Translations under genes and position numbers: made by a program
In this document: piece after piece, positions 16,601-64,000 of the stretch
How positions within the stretch are numbered: the first letter of the stretch is position 1
Layout: each line of letters opens with the position of its first letter
Notes under the pieces: model-generated
Told to the model about the DNA's origin: nothing
Databases searched by the model: none
What the model saw: only the letters and a program-made list of their open reading frames with translations
Assembly: GCA_040756415.1 (NCBI GenBank)
Contig: JBFLYZ010000008.1
Coordinates: 13,793-77,792, forward strand
Direction: 5' to 3'
DNA from: Bacteroidota bacterium
Lineage (GTDB): Bacteria > Bacteroidota > Bacteroidia > JADZBD01
Length of the DNA: 64,000 bases

Positions 16601-17410
16601 ATGCATTACGACCCGATCAAACGTTCGCTGGGCAATGTATTCAACCGCTCGCCCTGGCTGCGCAAGCTGTTCTACGGCCTTCTCGACCTGCTGCTGCTGC
16701 GCGCCTGGCATGTGCACCGGGAGCTGAGGCAATGGGCCAAGGGCGCAAAGCGTGAAGTGAACATTTTTGATGCGGGTGCCGGTTTCGGACAGTATTCCTA
16801 CTGGCTCTCCAGGTTCAGTCCGGGATGGAAGATACTGGCCGTGGATGTAAAGGAAGAACAGGTGGAGGATTGCAATAAGTTCTTCAGGCAGATCGGGAAG
16901 GGAGAGCAGGTCAGGTTCGAAGTGGCCGACCTGACCAGGTACGTTAAAACGGAAACGTTCGATCTGGCGCTTTCGGTGGACGTGATGGAGCATATCCTGG
17001 AGGACGTGCAGGTCTTCAGGAACATACATGCTTCGCTCAGGCCGGGCGGCATGCTGCTCATCTCCACGCCATCCGACCAGGGAGGCAGCGATGTGCACGG
17101 GGATGAGGACAGCTCGTTCATTGAAGAGCACGTGCGTGACGGTTATAACATCAGCGAGATTCAGGAAAAGCTGCGCTCGGCAGGCTTTTCGAGGACCGAG
17201 GCGCGCTACTCCTATGGCGCACCCGGTAAAATAGCCTGGCGCCTGTCCATGAAATATCCCATCCTTATGCTGGGGGCATCGAAACTTTTTTTCATCATTC
17301 TGCCTTTTTACTATCTCGTTACGTACCCTTTCGCGTTTATCCTGAATTACCTAGATACCTATTCAACGCATAAGACCGGTACCGGCCTGATCGTTAAAGC
17401 CTGGAAATGA
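16601..17410 (+). CDS. Class I SAM-dependent methyltransferase with C-terminal hydrophobic tail
   Basis: Motif I (VNIFDAGAGFGQYS). VDVMEHI post-I region. C-terminal TM-like segment. Confidence 0.75.
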   Translation: MHYDPIKRSLGNVFNRSPWLRKLFYGLLDLLLLRAWHVHRELRQWAKGAKREVNIFDAGAGFGQYSYWLSRFSPGWKILAVDVKEEQVEDCNKFFRQIGKGEQVRFEVADLTRYVKTETFDLALSVDVMEHILEDVQVFRNIHASLRPGGMLLISTPSDQGGSDVHGDEDSSFIEEHVRDGYNISEIQEKLRSAGFSRTEARYSYGAPGKIAWRLSMKYPILMLGASKLFFIILPFYYLVTYPFAFILNYLDTYSTHKTGTGLIVKAWK

Positions 17411-17412
17411 AA

Positions 17413-18009
17413 TTAAGTTCTCGCAAATTCAATCAGCGGTTTTAATTCTCCGTTATCGGCTTGCCTGACTGCTTTCAGGTACTTATCCCGCGCCTCGCCT
17501 TTTTTATTGATACTTGTTCCGCCCCAGGAAAAAACCTGCTTTCCGAAAATATGGTTGATAATGACGTCACCCATCAGGCGTGAGTGACGTCCATTACCGT
17601 TTGAAAAGCAATGAATACTTACTATTTGGTGCTTATACCTGATCGCAAGTTCTTCTTCAGGATAAGTCCTCTTTTCGAACCAATAAGCGGCATCGCCATT
17701 TAGTTGTTTCAAGGATGTGCCGATTTTATGCCAATCGCAACCGAGGTTTTTGTTCGAGCGCCTGAACTGCCCTGCCCATTTCCAAACATCGCCAAACATT
17801 TTCCGGTGAAGCCCGCAAACGAACTCCTCCGTAAATATTTTTTCCGGCTTGAATCTTTTCGCTATGGTCCATTCAATCGCCTTTTCGATGTTCTGCTGCT
17901 CAAACTCATCCAGCTCGCCACGAGTGGTGATCGTTTTAATCAGCAACCCTTCTTTTTCCTCCTCGTCAAGCGGAGTTTGCCCCGGTAAATATTCGAGTTC
18001 TAATCCCAT
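17413..18009 (-). CDS. Mobile mystery protein B (Fic/Doc family)
   Basis: The Fic motif HCFSNGNGRHSRL is present, matching HxFx(D/E)GNGRxxR. About 198 aa. Overlaps the upstream HTH gene by 10 nt. Noticeably lower GC than the flanking genes. Confidence 0.85.
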   Translation of the reverse strand: MGLELEYLPGQTPLDEEEKEGLLIKTITTRGELDEFEQQNIEKAIEWTIAKRFKPEKIFTEEFVCGLHRKMFGDVWKWAGQFRRSNKNLGCDWHKIGTSLKQLNGDAAYWFEKRTYPEEELAIRYKHQIVSIHCFSNGNGRHSRLMGDVIINHIFGKQVFSWGGTSINKKGEARDKYLKAVRQADNGELKPLIEFART

Positions 18010-18464
18010 AAATACTTGGGCATTTTATTTTTTATTTCCTCCGCTTTGCTCTTGATGGCTTTATCAATACGCTCCTGAGAATTTTCCTGGTCTTCCAGCT
18101 TCATTGTGTTGGAAGTGCGCAATACAATCTCACGAGCTTTTTCGTTAGCCCTTTTCTCAATCATACTCTCAATACTTTCGCCTTTCGGAACGAATCCGTA
18201 AACGAGTTTCAGGTCGAATGCCTTTGCAACCTCCCGTAAGGTTTTGATTGTGATGGAACCATTCGCTTCCCTTTTTTCAAGCTCATCAACGCTTTGGGCC
18301 GACATTTTTAATCGGGCAGCTAACTGCCGGAGCGACATTTTAAGAGCGGTGCGAATAGCATACACCCATCCCCTCTGCGGAGGAGAAACGTTTTCAACCG
18401 ATTTAAACAGGAAGAGTTTTTTATCTACCTGCTCGATAAGGAGTCTTTGTTTTTGTAAGTTCAT
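18000..18464 (-). CDS. Mobile mystery protein A (HTH-XRE DNA-binding protein)
   Basis: 154 aa. HTH segment (LKMSLRQLAARLKMSAQSVDELEKREANGSITIKTLREVAKAF). This is the classic partner of the Fic-family mystery protein B. Confidence 0.8.
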   Translation of the reverse strand: MNLQKQRLLIEQVDKKLFLFKSVENVSPPQRGWVYAIRTALKMSLRQLAARLKMSAQSVDELEKREANGSITIKTLREVAKAFDLKLVYGFVPKGESIESMIEKRANEKAREIVLRTSNTMKLEDQENSQERIDKAIKSKAEEIKNKMPKYLWD

Positions 18465-18626
18465 CAGGTTATAGCCTTAAAATTACAATACAAATTTAAG
18501 GTTATTACCTGATATAATAAAATTAATTTTCAGGTTATATCCTGAAAACTATATACAAGTTTTCAGGTAAAGCCTTGAAAAAAGTCAAAAATGGCAATAA
18601 TACCCTGAAAATACGAGGTTTATACG
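18465..18626 (-). promoter_or_regulatory. AT-rich promoter/operator region with 3-4 copies of an 18-20-nt palindromic repeat, upstream of the HTH/Fic operon
   Basis: CAGGTTATAGCCTTAAAA (18465), TTCAGGTTATATCCTGAAAA (18529, a perfect TTCAGG-N6-CCTGAA palindrome), TTCAGGTAAAGCCTTGAAAA (18562), and the partial CCCTGAAAATACGAGGTTTATACG (18603). There is also AGGTtattACCT at 18499. Confidence 0.6.
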
Positions 18627-18684
18627 TAGCTTAACCTTCGCGAATTCGTTATTCGTATATTCGTACAAATTCGCATTTCGCAGC

Positions 18685-19896
18685 TTGAATTTAGCAGCCT
18701 TCATAGCCAGGCGTTACCTCGTTTCGAAGAAATCGTACAACGCCATCAATATCATTTCCATTATTTCGGTAGTGGGGATTGCCGTGGGTACCATGGCGCT
18801 GGTGATCGTGCTCTCCGCGCTGAACGGAATTACCGGGCTGGTGTTTTCGCTGTATAACGTTTTCGATCCGGATGTGAAAATCCTTCCGAAAGAAGGAAAA
18901 GTAGTGGCGGTGAGCGGGCAGATGATCTCCGCGCTGGAGGGATATAACTATTCTTTCGTGATGGAGGAGAAGGCCCTGCTGCGGCATGGCGATAAACAGA
19001 CCATTGCCACGATCAAAGGGGTGGATGAGAACTTTGTGAAGCTGGCGCGCTTCGATACGGTGGTCTATCCCGGCAGTTTCAGGCTGGAGTCCGACAGCGT
19101 GACCTATTCCGTGCTGGGCTGCGGCATAGCCGATAAGCTGGGCATTTATGTTGGCGAAGGCGGGAGCTTCAGCATGCCCCTGCAGATCTATTTTCCGAAA
19201 AAGGAAAATACCGCTGTGCTGAACCCGGAAGACGCTTTCAGCACGGGTATTGTCTACCCTTCCGGAACCTTCTCCCTCAATGACGATTTTGATTTTACCT
19301 ATGTGTTGCTGCCCCTCGATTATGTGAGGGAGCTCCTGCAGGCAGGCGAAAAGGAGGTGAGTGCGGTGGAGATCACGGCTCCGGCCGGGAAAACGCCCGA
19401 TGAGCTGGCTGAGGACCTGAAGCAAAAACTGGGCGATGGCTTTAAGGTGAAAACCCGCTACGAACTGAACGAAGTGTTGTTCCGCACCATGAAGTCAGAA
19501 AAGTGGTGGACCTTCCTGATCCTTGCCTTTATCCTGGTCATCGGCACCTTCAACGTGATCGGCTCGCTCACCATGCTGATCATTGAGAAGAAAAAGGATA
19601 TTGGCATTCTCAGCACCATGGGGGCAGACGAAAGCCTTATCCGGAAGATATTTATGACCGAGGGTTTTTACATCACGCTCATCGGTGCGGTGGCCGGGCT
19701 GGCCCTGGGCCTGCTGATCTGTTTCTTGCAGATACGCTTCAAGCTGGTTCCGTTCAACGAGGGATTTGTGATCGATGCCTATCCCATTACCATTATACCC
19801 ATGGATATCCTGTACATTTTCCTTACTGTAATGGCCATCGGATTTTTCGCCTCCTGGTACCCTGTGCGGCTCTTTACCCGCAGGTATTTCGGCTGA
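18685..19896 (+). CDS. Lipoprotein-releasing system permease (LolC/LolE, FtsX family)
   Basis: 403 aa. N-terminal TM, a large periplasmic domain, then three C-terminal TM helices of the FtsX type (…GILSTMGADESLIRKIFMTEG…). Confidence 0.85.
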   Translation: MNLAAFIARRYLVSKKSYNAINIISIISVVGIAVGTMALVIVLSALNGITGLVFSLYNVFDPDVKILPKEGKVVAVSGQMISALEGYNYSFVMEEKALLRHGDKQTIATIKGVDENFVKLARFDTVVYPGSFRLESDSVTYSVLGCGIADKLGIYVGEGGSFSMPLQIYFPKKENTAVLNPEDAFSTGIVYPSGTFSLNDDFDFTYVLLPLDYVRELLQAGEKEVSAVEITAPAGKTPDELAEDLKQKLGDGFKVKTRYELNEVLFRTMKSEKWWTFLILAFILVIGTFNVIGSLTMLIIEKKKDIGILSTMGADESLIRKIFMTEGFYITLIGAVAGLALGLLICFLQIRFKLVPFNEGFVIDAYPITIIPMDILYIFLTVMAIGFFASWYPVRLFTRRYFG

Positions 19897-34758: not shown

Positions 34759-34766
34759 ATCTGTTG

Positions 34767-60342: not shown

Positions 60343-63300
60343 ATGAAACATCTCTACTCCCTTGCGGCCATTGGATTGTTCGCCTGCAACACTTTGCTTT
60401 TCGGACAGGTCAGCGTCAGCCCCCAAAACTCTTCCGGCTGCGCACCGCATATGGTTAACTTCTTATGCACGGCACCCGGGGCCACCTATTACATCTGGTA
60501 TTTTGATGATGGCCCTCAAACCGGGTTCACCACCAATAACGTGATGCCCCATACGTTTGGCCCGCGCATGGTGCCCTATAACGGATGGGTATCAGCTTAC
60601 GATGCTTCCTACATGTTCCTGGGACAGGCTGCTTTTTTTATTAATGTGAACGGTGCGGAGGATTCGCTGACCACCACTAACTACAATCCCTGCCCTGGCG
60701 ATATGGTGGTTTTTGATATTGGCGGAACAACCAATCCATCGAATATCGACTGGGATTTCGGGGACGGATCGCAGCTTAACAATGTTCCTTATTATGGCGT
60801 ACAGCACATTTATACATCACCGGGCACCTATTATCCCCGTGCCGTGGTGACAACCGGCTGCGGAACCGATACGCTGTGGCAGGTGGTTAACGTAAGCACT
60901 TCAGGGGTATTCCCCCCCTTTGTAAACACCTATATTCCTGTAGACAGCCTTTGCCCTGGCGACCCATTTACCGTCTATCCCCATTATATGTATCCCAATT
61001 ATGTGATCGATTGGGGGGATGGTAATTTTTCCACAGCACAAAACGCCCATGTGTACAATGCCCCGGGCAGTTACCTGGTCAAGGTAACTTACATCAACGG
61101 CTGCGGAAATACGCTTACGCAATCGGGAATAGCCACGGTGGCCAACAACCTGCCCATCAGCACTGTCCCCTTCATCGATATCTATCCCGATTCGGCCTGC
61201 ATCAATAGCAACGTGACCTTTTATCCGTACCCCGAGGCCTACGCCAGCTTCTCGTGGAATTTCGGGCCCAATGATAATGCGCTTACCAAAGTGGCCATTC
61301 GGCAGTTCACCAGTACAGGCGATAAGCCGGTAACGCTAACCGTCACCAATGGATGCGGCTATTCGGCAACAGCATATGATACGGTACGTATCGTGAGCAA
61401 TATTCCCATACCTCCCGGAGGACTGAACGTGTTCCCGCCTACTATTTGCCCGGGCGGTGCGGTGATGACCGAAGGCAATGTAAGCATGGGTGATGACAGG
61501 GACTACCTGTTTAGCTGGGATTACGGTGACGGCAATACCGGCACCGGCCGGCAGACCACGCACAGCTACGCTTCCGCGGGGTCATATACGATCACGCTCA
61601 CCATATCCAATGCCTGCGGCAACGCCCAAACGTATACAGCCCCCGTTACCGTGGCCACTAACGTTCAGCCCGATTCTGCGCAGTTCCTGTTCGGGCCCGT
61701 GCCATTCCAGCAGGCTTCTGTGCCGGGTTGTATTGGCGACAGCATGGTGTTCATCTTTGCTCCCGTCAGCTCTGCGGATTCCGTCATCTGGGATTTCGGT
61801 GATATGAGCAGCGGCATTGCAACGCAGGAGATCACCGTGGAAGGCGGCACCTACCGCATCATCAAGCATATGTATACCTCCAATGGAACGTTCTATCCGC
61901 GGGTTACATATAAGAATACCTGCGGCAATTCGTTCACAGCCTATCCGCCCAACTCGGTCACCATAGGCAGCAATTATTCTATCGAAGAGACCAACATATT
62001 CTTTGATGAGGCTGCCTACCATTGCCAGGGCAAAGATGTGACCTTTTATTCCTACGGAGGCAGCTATTACATCTGGAACTTCGGTGACGGAACGGGCGAT
62101 TTCATCAGCTATAATACGCTCGTGCCCATGAACCATGCCTTTCAGAACGCAGGGCAGTATACGGTCACCTGCAGGGTAACCAACGGGTGCGGCTATTCGG
62201 TTACCGACAGCGTGATGATCACCATTCCGGTCTCTGAGATCAACATCAATACCAACACGGTAAGCGCTTCCTGTGGCGTGAACAACGGCACGGCCATCGC
62301 GATCGGTAACGGGGGAGCGACCCCTTATACCTATCAATGGTCGAACGGTAACAGTACGTTCATGGCCGATAGCCTGGCATCGGGTATTTATGTGGTTACC
62401 ATCACCGATGTGCATGGCTGCTCGAACTTTGCCATCGCTACGGTAAGCGACCAGCAGGCCCCGGCCATCGCGGTAAGTACCGTGATCGATGTATCGTGTT
62501 ATGGAGGTAACAACGGAGCCATTGATATTAATCCCATAGGCAGCAGCGCTCCCTATACTTACCTCTGGTCGAACGGGGCCACCACGCAGGATATCAACCA
62601 ACTGGTAGCCGGCCCTTACGAGGTAGAGGTGACTGATGCCAACGGTTGCAAGTCCACGAAAAGCGTTATGGTGGGCCAGCCGCCCGAAGTGGTGCTGTCT
62701 ACCCTGAGCGGACTGGCCACCTGCGGAAACAGCGATGGCAGCGCTGGTGTTGCTGTTGGCGGTACCACGGGCCCGTATAATTATATCTGGTCGAATGGCG
62801 CAACTACACAAACCATTTATGGCCTGCAGGCGGGCATCTATACCGTAACCGTGGTCGATAACAACGGATGCATCTATTCGCAGAATGTGGCGGTCAATAA
62901 CCAGAATGCGCCCATTATCGTTGTCGACTCCATTACCGGAACGGGCTGCTCCAACAGCCTGGCAAGTGTGTATGTGCGTACGATCAACGGCGCCAACCCG
63001 CTTTCTTATTCCTGGTCGAATGGGGCAACCACCCAGGACCTGCTGAACGTGCCTGTAGGCATGTATACGCTTAAGGTGACCGATGCCAACGGCTGCAAAT
63101 CGTTCAGGCAGGTCACCATCGCCAAGGATGAGCCGGCCGGCACTGCCCTTTGTATAGTTACCGTGGATACGGTGACCGGGTTCAATAAAGTAGTGTGGAA
63201 CGAGGATACAAGCGCTACCGATATTGCCGGGTTCAACATTTACAAGGAAAGCACGCTCAGCGGCTTGTATTACCAGGTGGGATATGTGGATTTCGACAGC

Positions 63301-64000
63301 GCCAGCATATGGGTCGACAGCCTTTCTGATTCGCGTGTGCGTTCGTGGAGGTATAAAGTGGCCGTAGTGGACAATTGCGGCAACGAGTCGGCATGGAGCG
63401 GTGAGCACAAGACCATACACCTGAACGTGAACGTAGGGATCAACAACTCGTACAACCTGATCTGGGACCATTACGAAGGGTTCAGCTTCAGCACCTATGA
63501 GATCTATCGTTACTCCCAGGCCAACGGCTGGCAGTACCTAGGCAACGTTCCCAGCAATATTATGTCGTATACGGACCTCAATCCGCCCGTGAACACCATT
63601 GCCTACATGGTTGACGCGGTGCCTTCGTTCACCTGTAATGATAATGCCCGCTATGCAAGCGGAGCTGGAGTGCTGGCTGCAATCAACACCTCGCATTCCA
63701 ATATCAAGAACCTGGTAGCTACGGGACCTGGCGGGGAGGAAGAAAGCATCGTGGCCACAGATTTCAACCTGTATCCCAATCCTTCTTCCGGCAGTGTCGG
63801 TCTGTCTTATCCCTCAAGCGATGACGGGTATACGATCACGGTCTATAACGCCATAGGCGAGATCATATTCAGCTCGGTGATCGCTCCGGGCGATGCGCGC
63901 ATGGCGATCAACCAGAAGACCATCGACCTGAAGGGCCTGGCCAAAGGCATCTATACCATAGGCATTTCCAATAAGAACGGCAGCGTGTACAAAAAGCTCG
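60343..64000 (+). CDS. Second giant T9SS-secreted protein (PKD domains x~7, SprB repeats x~5, FN3-like, C-terminal module). It is partial and continues beyond the window.
   Basis: Signal peptide MKHLYSLAAIGLFA. Repeated …WDFGDG… PKD motifs. SprB-type repeats (…GIYVVTITDVHGC…, …GPYEVEVTDANGCKS…, …GIYTVTVVDNNGC…, …GMYTLKVTDANGCKS…). C-terminal …AINTSHSNIKNLV…LYPNPSSG… matches the preceding gene. The ORF is open at 64000. Confidence 0.8.
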   Translation, partial: MKHLYSLAAIGLFACNTLLFGQVSVSPQNSSGCAPHMVNFLCTAPGATYYIWYFDDGPQTGFTTNNVMPHTFGPRMVPYNGWVSAYDASYMFLGQAAFFINVNGAEDSLTTTNYNPCPGDMVVFDIGGTTNPSNIDWDFGDGSQLNNVPYYGVQHIYTSPGTYYPRAVVTTGCGTDTLWQVVNVSTSGVFPPFVNTYIPVDSLCPGDPFTVYPHYMYPNYVIDWGDGNFSTAQNAHVYNAPGSYLVKVTYINGCGNTLTQSGIATVANNLPISTVPFIDIYPDSACINSNVTFYPYPEAYASFSWNFGPNDNALTKVAIRQFTSTGDKPVTLTVTNGCGYSATAYDTVRIVSNIPIPPGGLNVFPPTICPGGAVMTEGNVSMGDDRDYLFSWDYGDGNTGTGRQTTHSYASAGSYTITLTISNACGNAQTYTAPVTVATNVQPDSAQFLFGPVPFQQASVPGCIGDSMVFIFAPVSSADSVIWDFGDMSSGIATQEITVEGGTYRIIKHMYTSNGTFYPRVTYKNTCGNSFTAYPPNSVTIGSNYSIEETNIFFDEAAYHCQGKDVTFYSYGGSYYIWNFGDGTGDFISYNTLVPMNHAFQNAGQYTVTCRVTNGCGYSVTDSVMITIPVSEININTNTVSASCGVNNGTAIAIGNGGATPYTYQWSNGNSTFMADSLASGIYVVTITDVHGCSNFAIATVSDQQAPAIAVSTVIDVSCYGGNNGAIDINPIGSSAPYTYLWSNGATTQDINQLVAGPYEVEVTDANGCKSTKSVMVGQPPEVVLSTLSGLATCGNSDGSAGVAVGGTTGPYNYIWSNGATTQTIYGLQAGIYTVTVVDNNGCIYSQNVAVNNQNAPIIVVDSITGTGCSNSLASVYVRTINGANPLSYSWSNGATTQDLLNVPVGMYTLKVTDANGCKSFRQVTIAKDEPAGTALCIVTVDTVTGFNKVVWNEDTSATDIAGFNIYKESTLSGLYYQVGYVDFDSASIWVDSLSDSRVRSWRYKVAVVDNCGNESAWSGEHKTIHLNVNVGINNSYNLIWDHYEGFSFSTYEIYRYSQANGWQYLGNVPSNIMSYTDLNPPVNTIAYMVDAVPSFTCNDNARYASGAGVLAAINTSHSNIKNLVATGPGGEEESIVATDFNLYPNPSSGSVGLSYPSSDDGYTITVYNAIGEIIFSSVIAPGDARMAINQKTIDLKGLAKGIYTIGISNKNGSVYKKL
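62230..63130 (+). repeat. Tandem SprB-type coding repeats (~258 nt each)
   Basis: Repeated Y(T/N)Y.WSNG.(T/S)TQ…Y.V.V.D.NGC protein modules. Confidence 0.65.

What the first reader, a model, noticed from the sequence alone, without database searches (positions are those of the whole stretch)
17413..18690. Low-GC Fic/HTH 'mobile mystery protein A/B' cassette inserted between housekeeping genes
A two-gene overlapping operon (HTH-XRE protein plus Fic-family protein carrying the HCFSNGNGRHSRL motif) sits between a methyltransferase and the LolC/E permease. It reads visibly more AT-rich than both flanks, and it is preceded by a 220-bp AT-rich leader full of operator-like repeats. This pairing is the TIGRFAM 'mobile mystery protein A/B' type of toxin-antitoxin-like module, usually carried on mobile DNA. 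Here it looks like a solitary, horizontally acquired island with no integrase or flanking direct repeats visible.
Basis: partly seen in the sequence, partly recalled or inferred. Interest (0 to 1): 0.55.

Follow-up and report, generated by a model that had tools for sequence, protein, structure and literature searches.

The report
Acquired Fic toxin–antitoxin-type gene pair
A small, self-regulating two-gene module (a DNA-binding protein plus a Fic-type enzyme, the database family called "mobile mystery protein A/B") has been inserted between two housekeeping genes of a Bacteroidota genome; the family is already named and widespread, so the find is ordinary, though nobody has yet tested what the family does.

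Summary
On the minus strand lie gene A (18000-18464, 154 aa, HTH) and gene B (17413-18009, 198 aa, Fic), overlapping by 10 nt. They score above the curated cut-offs of TIGR02612 and TIGR02613. The same proteins are already in NCBI as "mobile mystery protein A/B" from a Bacteroidota MAG.

The pair is foreign here. It is the lowest-GC stretch of the 64-kb window (41.7% against 53.7%; GC3 about 0.49 against 0.65-0.77). It is absent from all 80 related rbfA-methyltransferase-lolE loci. About 100 other cassette copies sit in unrelated contexts.

The leader holds three good copies of a 16-bp palindrome (TCAGGTTATAACCTGA) at 33-bp spacing, plus two degenerate ones. They bracket a Bacteroidetes-type promoter, and the last one overlaps the ATG. 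This layout recurs across the family.

Best reading: an autoregulated type II toxin-antitoxin-like module of the class I Fic kind. A represses its own promoter. Its conserved C-terminal (S/T)MxLExQ segment probably blocks B's active site.

Two family-wide peculiarities were seen. Asn replaces the Asp/Glu of the Fic motif, and the unit carries no mobility gene or terminal repeats. Toxicity, target and chemistry are untested. Interest is low to moderate.

The parts
17413..18009 (-). Gene B: Fic-fold protein, 198 aa ('mobile mystery protein B'). Active-site loop is H133-C-F-S-N137-G-N-G-R141-H-S-R144.
   Evidence: TIGR02613 scores 232.7 bits against a cut-off of 124.4. Pfam Fic, E = 1.7e-10. The AF2 model has pLDDT 84; its best PDB folds are VbhT, EcFicT and Fic-1. 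It is 100% identical to an NCBI MAG protein of that name.
18000..18464 (-). Gene A: 154-aa protein ('mobile mystery protein A'). It has an N-terminal helix, an XRE-type HTH (about residues 33-88), and a C-terminal helical hairpin with an invariant R116-x-S-x-(T/S)120-M-x-L-E124-x-Q126-x-N128.
   Evidence: TIGR02612 scores 145.4 bits against a cut-off of 122.6. Pfam HTH_3. Conservation comes from 120 homologues and from 9 members of different phyla. The AF2 secondary structure is low confidence.
18000..18009 (-). 10-nt overlap of the A stop and the B start (ATGGGATTAG). This suggests translational coupling.
   Evidence: Read directly from the sequence. The same -10 overlap occurs in 88 of 96 cassettes analysed.
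18464..18479 (.). Operator box 1 (TCAGGTTATAGCCTTA on the + strand). It overlaps the A of the ATG of gene A and would lie in the short 5' UTR.
   Evidence: 2 mismatches to the palindrome. A box sits at the same position, -15..0, in independent cassettes.
18497..18512 (.). Operator box 2 (TAAGGTTATTACCTGA). It fills the spacer between the putative -33 and -7 promoter elements.
   Evidence: position -48..-33 is conserved.
18530..18545 (.). Operator box 3 (TCAGGTTATATCCTGA), the best palindrome. It lies just upstream of the -33 element.
   Evidence: inverted repeats I2, I3; position -81..-66.
18563..18578 (.). Degenerate box 4 (TCAGGTAAAGCCTTGA), 33 nt from box 3.
   Evidence: I3. A counterpart is seen in the closest cassette, L094.
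18600..18611 (.). Half-site 5 (ATACCCTGAAAA).
   Evidence: D12, I9. It is conserved in L094.
18491..18498 (-). Putative Bacteroidetes -7 promoter element TAAATTTG (TAnnTTTG). A -33-like TTTA lies at 18518-21, 19 nt upstream. The predicted transcript start is near 18485.
   Evidence: Sequence. TAnnTTTG clusters at fixed distances from the ATG in 77 unique family leaders. The promoter consensus is from established knowledge. The sigma-70 scan found nothing.
17410..18624 (-). Extent of the acquired unit as defined by nucleotide homology to cassettes in other genomes.
   Evidence: blastn: L094 matches 18624-17825 at 84% identity. More than 30 other cassettes match from about 18545 to 17410-17418. 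None shares flanking DNA with the window.
16601..17410 (+). Native flank: intact SAM methyltransferase. Its stop codon is 2 nt from the stop codon of B, and the two genes converge.
   Evidence: Full-length alignment (residues 1-269) to orthologues.
18685..19896 (+). Native flank: LolC/E-type permease. In relatives it follows the methyltransferase directly.

Best explanation
This is a horizontally acquired, self-contained two-gene module of the TIGR02612/TIGR02613 ('mobile mystery protein A/B') family. It most likely works as an autoregulated type II toxin-antitoxin-like system of the class I Fic kind.

Shown:
- The unit (operator/promoter region, gene A and gene B, about 1.2 kb) is foreign to this genome. 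It sits exactly in the short spacer that separates the methyltransferase and lolE genes in relatives.
- A is always encoded immediately upstream of B, usually with a 10-nt overlap.
- The leader carries phased palindromes, and their layout is conserved across the family.

Inferred:
(i) A, presumably as a dimer, binds the 16-bp palindromes. These lie on one face of the DNA, every 33 bp. They cover the -33/-7 spacer, the region upstream of it, and the first 20 nt or so of the transcript including the start codon. A therefore represses its own operon.
(ii) B is a nucleotidyl-transferase of the FicT/VbhT type. It has no inhibitory helix of its own.
(iii) The conserved C-terminal hairpin of A places the invariant Glu124 of its (S/T)MxLExQ segment against Arg144 of the Fic loop. 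This would block productive nucleotide binding, as VbhA, EcFicA and AntF do.
(iv) When A is lost or degraded, free B modifies an essential target. By analogy this would be GyrB or ParE, but it is unknown. The result is growth arrest, which would stabilise plasmids and islands or abort phage infection.

The family-wide Asn at the metal-binding Asp/Glu position means the exact chemistry may differ from canonical AMPylation.
For: Family and fold.

Foreign origin: GC and codon usage. The cassette is absent from 80 of 80 related loci with conserved ABC-rbfA-MT-lolE synteny. The same cassette, at 66-84% nucleotide identity, lies in about 100 unrelated contexts, with homology ending at the B stop codon and in the leader.

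Obligate pairing: A lies upstream of B in 102 of 102 loci where the sequence is present. The -10 overlap occurs in 88 of 96.

Operators:
- Three matches in the window against 0.18 expected.
- The three-box layout sits at -15, -48 and -81 in independent cassettes.
- Box sequences change between cassettes but stay alike within each cassette.
- A 32/33-nt self-similarity peak appears in 77 unique leaders.
- TAnnTTTG lies at fixed positions.

Inhibitory segment: L-E-x-Q is invariant, and S/T sits at -4 in 7 of 9 members from four bacterial phyla and one viral contig. T/S120 and E124 are present in 120 of 120 close homologues. B has no conserved (S/T)xxxE(G/N) of its own, and its R144 is invariant. 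The definition of the motif and the role of the Glu come from PMC3667792 and PMC13327609.

Plasmid association: 263 plasmid records, including pTiC58 and pQpH1. An Xre-Fic/Doc pairing was already listed among predicted toxin-antitoxin pairs in PMC2701414.
Against: - No member of this family has been tested. Toxicity, neutralisation and DNA binding are all inferred.
- A profile of A shows no detectable similarity to VbhA (hhalign probability 0.2). A profile search of the PDB finds only HTH proteins.
- The residue after the Glu is mostly Asp, Ala or Ser, not the Gly or Asn of the published motif.
- The A model is poor (pLDDT 61).
- Asn137 replaces the Asp/Glu that binds Mg2+. In Fic-1 the E139A change abolishes AMPylation and toxicity, so B might not be a canonical AMPylase or a toxin.
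- Dyad symmetry at the fixed box positions, averaged over the family, was not above AT-rich controls.
Confidence: 0.72

Rival explanations
1. The module is primarily an anti-phage (abortive-infection) defence system, not a plasmid or island addiction module. Infection would release B from A, and B would then shut down the cell or the phage. This shares the molecular mechanism of the best explanation and differs only in the biological role.
For: - B hits PADLOC's defence-candidate family PDC-S04 (E = 3.7e-22) and, weakly, SoFic.
- A hits HTH_VI and CapH-type defence regulators weakly.
- Some copies lie next to BrxA or ORF6N, or on integrative elements.
- TIGR02613 was counted among the defence cargo of Tn7-like transposons (PMC8649781).
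Against: - PDC-S04 is an untested candidate. The one native-host test I found saw no defence (bioRxiv 10.1101/2024.12.20.629700).
- The window copy is solitary, between housekeeping genes, with no defence genes nearby.
- The TIGR02613 score far exceeds the PDC-S04 score, so membership of PDC-S04 proper is uncertain.
Confidence: 0.3
2. B is not a toxin. It is a regulatory or reversible modifier (for example a de-AMPylase, or an enzyme using another donor or metal), and A is just its transcriptional regulator.
For: - Asn replaces the Mg2+-binding Asp/Glu in every member examined.
- Fic proteins that deviate from HxFx(D/E)GNGRxxR are considered to have other activities (PMC3667792).
- Fic-antitoxin complexes can act as de-AMPylases (PMC13327609).
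Against: - The strict two-gene coupling with overlap, the autoregulatory operator array, plasmid enrichment and patchy horizontal distribution are the hallmarks of toxin-antitoxin modules.
- His133, Asn139, Arg141 and Arg144 of the catalytic loop are conserved.
Confidence: 0.12
3. The pair is native and vertically inherited, or it is an assembly or binning artefact of the MAG. On this reading its low GC reflects AT-rich regulatory DNA and small genes only.
For: - In some other genomes the cassette's GC equals that of its flanks (L081, L095, L101).
- The source is a metagenome-assembled genome, and reads were not available to me.
Against: - 0 of 80 related loci carry it.
- GC3 of both coding regions, not only the leader, is about 0.2 below the neighbours.
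- Both junctions lie inside one contig, between syntenic genes that are intact to their last and first codons.
Confidence: 0.04

Closest known systems
TIGR02612 / TIGR02613 'mobile mystery protein A / B' (NCBIfam hypothetical equivalogs)
   Same: - Both proteins score above the curated cut-offs over the full length of the profiles.
- The gene order, sizes (154 and 198 aa) and overlap are the same as in about 100 other cassettes.
- The very sequences are deposited under these names.
   Different: Nothing differs in kind. This copy is solitary, in a chromosome, between housekeeping genes. Many named members lie on plasmids or next to recombinases.
Class I Fic toxin-antitoxin modules: VbhT/VbhA, EcFicT/EcFicA (YhfG), Fic-1/AntF
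   Same: - They are the nearest solved folds (TM 0.53-0.65) and the nearest PDB sequences.
- The toxin is short (about 200 aa) and has no inhibitory helix of its own.
- The partner is encoded just upstream.
- The partner carries a conserved (S/T)xxxE with an invariant Glu.
- The WAGxxR and GNGRxxR elements are conserved.
   Different: - The partner is 154 aa with an XRE HTH domain, not a 50-60-aa peptide.
- No detectable sequence similarity to VbhA.
- The residue after the Glu is not Gly or Asn.
- The Fic motif has Asn instead of Asp/Glu.
- The target is unknown; GyrB/ParE is only an analogy.
Xre-Fic/Doc predicted type II TA pairs (Makarova, Wolf & Koonin 2009, PMC2701414)
   Same: An HTH (Xre) gene adjacent to a Fic/Doc gene, listed with 22 occurrences among candidate toxin-antitoxin pairs.
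   Different: That listing is by superfamily only. It does not distinguish this family or describe its operators or motif variants.
PADLOC PDC-S04 and SoFic (Fic-domain defence candidates or systems)
   Same: B matches PDC-S04 profiles (E = 3.7e-22 and 2e-16) and, weakly, SoFic.
   Different: PDC-S04 is defined as a single-gene candidate. SoFic is a 361-position profile for a class II Fic protein with its own inhibitory helix. Here a separate HTH partner is obligatory.
Doc/Phd (phage P1)
   Same: A Fic-fold toxin with an upstream antitoxin that is also the operon's repressor.
   Different: From the same recall, Doc carries a Lys in place of the second Gly of the loop (…NKR) and acts as a kinase. 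B keeps the canonical GNGR. NCBIfam and Pfam place B with Fic proper.

Membership tests
TIGR02613 mobile mystery protein B | Full-length HMM match above the curated cut-off | tested here: met
   232.7 bits against 124.4. Residues 12-197 match profile positions 2-186 of 186.
TIGR02613 mobile mystery protein B | Encoded immediately downstream of a TIGR02612 partner | tested here: met
   A ends at 18000 and B starts at 18009, a 10-nt overlap. The same holds in 102 of 102 loci where the upstream DNA is present.
TIGR02612 mobile mystery protein A | Full-length HMM match above the curated cut-off, with an HTH domain | tested here: met
   145.4 bits against 122.6. Pfam HTH_3 at residues 35-88.
Fic/Fido fold | Helical Fic core with the catalytic loop between helices alpha4 and alpha5 | tested here: met
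   Pfam PF02661, E = 1.7e-10. AF2 pLDDT 84. Foldseek to 3shg, 3zcb, 5jfz and 8wt0 gives probability 1.00 and TM 0.53-0.65.
Canonical AMPylating Fic enzymes | Signature HxFx(D/E)GNGRxxR | tested here: not met
   The loop is H-C-F-S-N-G-N-G-R-H-S-R. Asn is at the D/E position in 120 of 120 close homologues and in all 9 members from different phyla. All other signature residues are present.
Class I Fic toxin-antitoxin (FicTA / VbhTA) | The Fic protein lacks its own (S/T)xxxE(G/N) inhibitory helix | tested here: met
   No conserved match in B. The candidate stretches T12..E16 and T29..E32 are out of register or not conserved across phyla.
Class I Fic toxin-antitoxin (FicTA / VbhTA) | The upstream partner carries the (S/T)xxxE(G/N) inhibitory motif | tested here: inconclusive
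   T120-M-K-L-E124-D. S/T and E are conserved (E invariant), but the last position is D, A, S, N or M, rarely G or N. There is no profile similarity to VbhA. The A model is too poor to judge.
Class I Fic toxin-antitoxin (FicTA / VbhTA) | The toxin arrests growth by AMPylating GyrB or ParE, and the partner neutralises it | not testable with these tools
   This needs expression and biochemical assays. I found no experimental paper on this family.
Type II toxin-antitoxin module (general) | Small bicistronic operon, with a DNA-binding antitoxin first and operators in its own promoter | tested here: met
   Overlapping genes. A phased palindrome array brackets a TAnnTTTG promoter, and the layout is conserved across the family. 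Binding itself is inferred.
Genomic island / integrative element | Integrase or transposase, a tRNA or att site, flanking direct repeats | tested here: not met
   - No such gene lies within several kb.
- The only tRNA is at 34766.
- Only short repeats at chance level were found.
- No neighbour family recurs among 360 flanking ORFs of about 100 cassettes.
Integron gene cassette | An attC recombination site downstream of the ORF | tested here: not met
   The B stop codon is 2 nt from the stop codon of the convergent methyltransferase, so there is no room for an attC. Homology between cassettes ends at the stop codon.
PADLOC PDC-S04 defence candidate | Profile match; anti-phage activity | tested here: inconclusive
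   Profile match at E = 3.7e-22. Activity is not testable here, and the one published native-host test was negative.

The most novel reading that the evidence does not exclude
The 'mobile mystery' A/B family could be a distinct, still uncharacterised branch of Fic biology.
- Trans-inhibition of the class I type would be delivered by the operon's own HTH repressor, so one protein couples DNA binding and active-site obstruction.
- The active site has fixed Asn in place of the metal-binding Asp/Glu across four bacterial phyla. This implies a different metal dependence, nucleotide donor, reaction (for example constitutive de-modification) or target from the known FicT toxins.
- The unit spreads as a minimal promoter-to-stop-codon segment, without any recombinase or terminal repeats.
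Probability: 0.25. Interest if true: 0.55.

Novelty: already known. Interest (0 to 1): 0.28.

Why it matters
For this genome it matters little. It is one more small acquired toxin-antitoxin-type module, and the public record already names it correctly.

It does mark the methyltransferase-lolE junction as a site that tolerates insertions. The cassette also splits what is a tight rbfA-methyltransferase-lolE gene string in relatives, and it points a promoter against the methyltransferase with no terminator in between.

At the family level the value is as a clean, compact test case. The family has thousands of members, including copies on the Agrobacterium Ti plasmid and Coxiella QpH1, but no tested function. 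This analysis yields concrete predictions that can be checked:
- the operator sequence and layout;
- Glu124 of A as the inhibitory residue;
- His133, Asn137 and Arg144 of B as the catalytic set.

Tried and rejected
- Looked up the contig of the exact protein: not on record in that index.
- Profile of A against the PDB: only generic HTH hits, no antitoxin.
- hhalign of the A profile against VbhA (sequence verified): no similarity, probability 0.2. Homology of the C-terminal segment to known Fic antitoxins is therefore not shown.
- AF2 of A: pLDDT 61, too poor for a fold search.
- Cultured phage genomes: no match. IMG/VR: a single contig out of 2.9 million. A phage origin is rejected.
- Flanking direct or inverted repeats as insertion scars: only 10-14-nt imperfect pairs typical of chance.
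- A recurrent mobility gene next to the cassette: clustering of 360 flanking ORFs found none. Only 4 loci have primase-like integrative-element genes, one plasmid has a tyrosine recombinase directly after B, and one has a recombinase-family gene upstream.
- Family-averaged dyad symmetry at fixed box positions: not above AT-rich controls. The family-wide claim therefore rests on the 32/33-nt periodicity and on inspection, not on this measure.
- Sigma-70 promoter scan: none found. This is expected for Bacteroidota.
- Shared neighbourhood with other cassettes: polA and dus homologues lie near the cassettes of L095 and L101 and within 12 kb here. I judged this a coincidence; roughly 0.7 such matches are expected by chance.
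- Literature searches for the family names, Xre-Fic, QpH1 Fic and PDC-S04: no functional study found. Engel et al. 2012 is not held.
Full report
**1. What is in the sequence**

The region holds two minus-strand ORFs. Gene A is 18000-18464 (154 aa). Gene B is 17413-18009 (198 aa, with the loop HCFSNGNGRHSRL). They overlap by 10 nt, ATGGGATTAG.

Upstream of A lies a 220-bp stretch of 30.5% GC, 18465-18684. Beyond it, a LolC/E-type permease gene starts on the plus strand at 18685. On the other side, a SAM-methyltransferase gene (16601-17410, +) converges on B. Their stop codons are 2 nt apart, and rbfA precedes the methyltransferase. No terminator-like site separates the methyltransferase and B.

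**2. Composition**

The stretch 17413-18690 has 41.7% GC. The window as a whole has 53.7%. Among all 1278-bp windows the sd is 2.5 points, and only 0.08% are as low, all of them overlapping this spot.

This is not just the AT-rich leader. GC3 is 0.50 for B and 0.48 for A, against 0.65-0.77 for the six neighbouring genes. In synonymous codon choice, A and B rank 2nd and 4th most atypical of 39 ORFs.

**3. Identity**

- B matches TIGR02613 ('mobile mystery protein B') at 232.7 bits; the curated cut-off is 124.4.
- A matches TIGR02612 ('mobile mystery protein A') at 145.4 bits; the cut-off is 122.6. Both matches are full length.
- Pfam gives Fic for B and HTH_3 for A.
- Proteins 100% identical to both are in NCBI under exactly these names, from a Bacteroidota MAG contig of 83 kb.
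- The AF2 model of B is good (pLDDT 84, pTM 0.82).
- Its nearest solved folds are the class I Fic toxins VbhT, EcFicT and Fic-1, all crystallised with small antitoxins (TM 0.53-0.65). Fic-1 (8wt0) is also the best sequence hit in the PDB.

**4. Foreign origin and insertion site**

I fetched 80 loci from other Bacteroidota that encode the orthologous methyltransferase (67-80% identity).

- The ABC-rbfA-methyltransferase-lolE order is widely kept.
- 59 loci have lolE directly downstream. The median spacer is 85 bp, and 46 loci have 200 bp or less.
- None of the 80 has a homologue of A or B.
- In the window, the methyltransferase and LolE are intact to their last and first residues.
- Thirteen relatives carry other, unrelated inserts at the same junction, so the site tolerates insertions.

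Conversely, about 100 other copies of the cassette were recovered, from contig look-ups and a metagenome scan. They lie in unrelated contexts, and none is near rbfA, methyltransferase or lolE homologues.

Nucleotide homology between the window and these copies runs from the B stop codon (17410-17418) to about 18545. For the closest copy (L094, 84% identity) it runs to 18624. Nothing beyond that is shared. The acquired unit is therefore about 17410-18624. The 60 bp or so before lolE are probably native.

**5. No mobility apparatus**

- The only tRNA is 16 kb away.
- No integrase or transposase gene is nearby.
- Repeats spanning the cassette are short and imperfect.
- There is no room for an attC site.
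- Clustering of 360 ORFs flanking about 100 cassettes found no recurrent neighbour.

Some copies are clearly on mobile DNA:
- 263 plasmid records, including Agrobacterium pTiC58, Coxiella pQpH1, and Rickettsia, Vibrio and rhizobial plasmids;
- a Thiothrix plasmid where a tyrosine recombinase follows B directly;
- four metagenome loci with BT4734-like/DUF3987 primase-like, HTH_17 and DUF6617 genes, with BrxA or ORF6N on the other side.

Cultured phages have none. IMG/VR has one contig.

**6. The leader is an operator array around a promoter**

Three 16-mers match the perfect palindrome TCAGGTTATAACCTGA with 2, 2 and 1 mismatches. They start at 18464, 18497 and 18530. These are the only matches in 64 kb, where 0.18 are expected, and no shuffle reached 3. 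A degenerate copy follows at 18563 and a half-site at about 18600. The spacing is 33 bp, close to three helical turns.

Read in the direction of the genes:
- The proximal box ends on the A of the ATG.
- The middle box fills the 19-nt spacer between TTTA (18518-21) and TAAATTTG (18491-98). These fit the Bacteroidetes -33 TTTG / -7 TAnnTTTG promoter consensus, which I take from established knowledge.
- The third box lies just upstream.

The same layout, with boxes at -15, -48 and -81 from the ATG, appears in independent cassettes. Where the box sequence differs between cassettes (for example TATAGnTATAnCTATA in L149, or TTAATACTATAG in L126 and L182), all boxes of that cassette differ together. 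That is what repressor-operator co-evolution predicts.

Over 77 unique leaders, self-similarity peaks sharply at shifts of 32-33 nt: 0.46 and 0.44, against about 0.33 background. TAnnTTTG occurs at a few fixed distances from the ATG.

A family-averaged dyad-symmetry score at fixed positions was not above controls. I therefore claim palindromy only where it is directly visible.

**7. Features of the proteins**

*B.* Among 120 close homologues the loop reads H(117)-C-F-x-N-G-N-G-R-H-S-R, with Asn137 in 120 of 120. The Asn is also present in members from Alpha-, Gamma- and Epsilonproteobacteria and in the viral contig.

The canonical adenylylation signature is HxFx(D/E)GNGRxxR. Its D/E holds the Mg2+, and deviating motifs are taken to indicate other activities (PMC3667792). 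In Fic-1, E139A abolishes AMPylation and toxicity (PMC13327609). The one-residue deviation is therefore a family hallmark with possible consequences for function.

B has no conserved inhibitory (S/T)xxxE(G/N) motif of its own.

*A.* Its best-conserved stretch outside the HTH is R116-x-S118-x-(T/S)120-M-x-L-E124-x-Q126-x-N128. T/S120 and E124 are present in 120 of 120. L-E-x-Q is invariant in all nine cross-phylum members, and S/T sits at -4 in seven of them.

This reproduces the first five positions of the inhibitory-helix signature of VbhA (S20-Q-R-L-E24-G; sequence verified). In the low-confidence model it sits at the turn of a C-terminal two-helix hairpin. AntF is described in the same way.

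The position after the Glu is usually Asp, Ala or Ser. Profile comparison with VbhA finds nothing, and neither does a PDB profile search. The inhibitory role of Glu124 is therefore a motif-level inference, not established homology.

**8. Mechanism proposed**

Shown:
- the cassette is acquired;
- it is a strictly coupled A-B operon (102 of 102 loci; a 10-nt overlap in 88 of 96);
- it carries a conserved phased repeat array around its promoter.

Inferred:
- Dimers of A bind the boxes and repress the operon.
- The C-terminal hairpin of A docks on B and places Glu124 against Arg144, preventing productive nucleotide binding.
- Loss of A frees B, which modifies an essential protein and stops growth.

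The target is unknown. GyrB or ParE is only the analogy with FicT toxins. Whether the biological role is replicon addiction or abortive defence cannot be decided. B does hit the PADLOC candidate family PDC-S04, but that candidate is unverified and gave no defence in one native-host test.

**9. Comparison with what is known, and verdict**

The Xre-Fic/Doc pairing was listed among predicted toxin-antitoxin systems in 2009 (PMC2701414). TIGR02613 has been counted as Fic/Doc cargo of Tn7-like transposons.

I found no experimental work on the family.

The item is an already named and already annotated module, and its presence here is an ordinary horizontal acquisition.

What remains of interest is at the family level: the HTH-linked putative inhibitory segment, the fixed Asn in the catalytic loop, and spread without recognisable mobility functions.

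Noticed in passing
window 61582-63471 (-): A 629-aa ORF with GC3 of 0.47. Its codon usage is the most atypical of 39 ORFs in the window, and it has no Pfam match. It is possibly another acquired gene.
   Followed up: partly
L007, L014, L020, L024, L038, L057, L071, L078, L080, L074, L037 (gap between the methyltransferase and lolE): In 13 of 59 related genomes the same methyltransferase-lolE junction holds other, unrelated inserts of 0.2-3.9 kb. These include lipoprotein-like ORFs, a GNAT-like 157-aa ORF and a 646-aa membrane protein. The junction seems to tolerate insertions.
   Followed up: partly
L086, L087, L088 (downstream of B, about 6600-9200 in L086): Contigs encoding the identical B protein differ in what lies between B and a conserved TPR gene. 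One has nothing there, one has an acetyltransferase plus a 504-aa ORF, and one has an ABC-ATPase plus peptidase M1 plus methyltransferase. This is a strain-variable spot next to the cassette.
   Followed up: no
L118, L142, L150, L164; L102 4607-5587; L188 1-536: A minority of cassettes do sit beside mobility or defence genes. Four metagenome loci have BT4734-like_N/DUF3987 primase-like, HTH_17 and DUF6617 genes, with BrxA or ORF6N nearby. A Thiothrix plasmid has a tyrosine recombinase 7 nt after B. A Vibrio plasmid has a recombinase-family gene upstream.
   Followed up: partly
window 17408-17415: The stop codons of the convergent methyltransferase and B are 2 nt apart, with no terminator. Transcripts of each gene should run antisense into the other. 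lolE, which follows the methyltransferase within tens of bp in relatives, is now cut off from it by 1.27 kb.
   Followed up: no
window 18631-18684: Short ATTCG-type repeats (GAATTCGT, TATTCGTA twice, AAATTCGC) lie directly upstream of the TTG start of lolE and outside the region homologous to other cassettes. They may be native lolE control DNA. Unexplained.
   Followed up: no
B residues 1-13 (window 17971-18009, -): The N-terminus of B is conserved (Y7, then G10-Q-T-P13). Fic-1 of Pseudomonas needs auto-AMPylation of an N-terminal Tyr5 for activity (PMC13327609). Tyr7 might play that part, but it is not conserved in the proteobacterial members.
   Followed up: no
L104 (IMG/VR UViG_3300023444_000236): This is the only viral-collection contig with the cassette. 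It also carries an 1158-aa ORF with repeated SAP-like segments and a D12-class adenine methyltransferase. Whether it is truly viral is unclear.
   Followed up: partly
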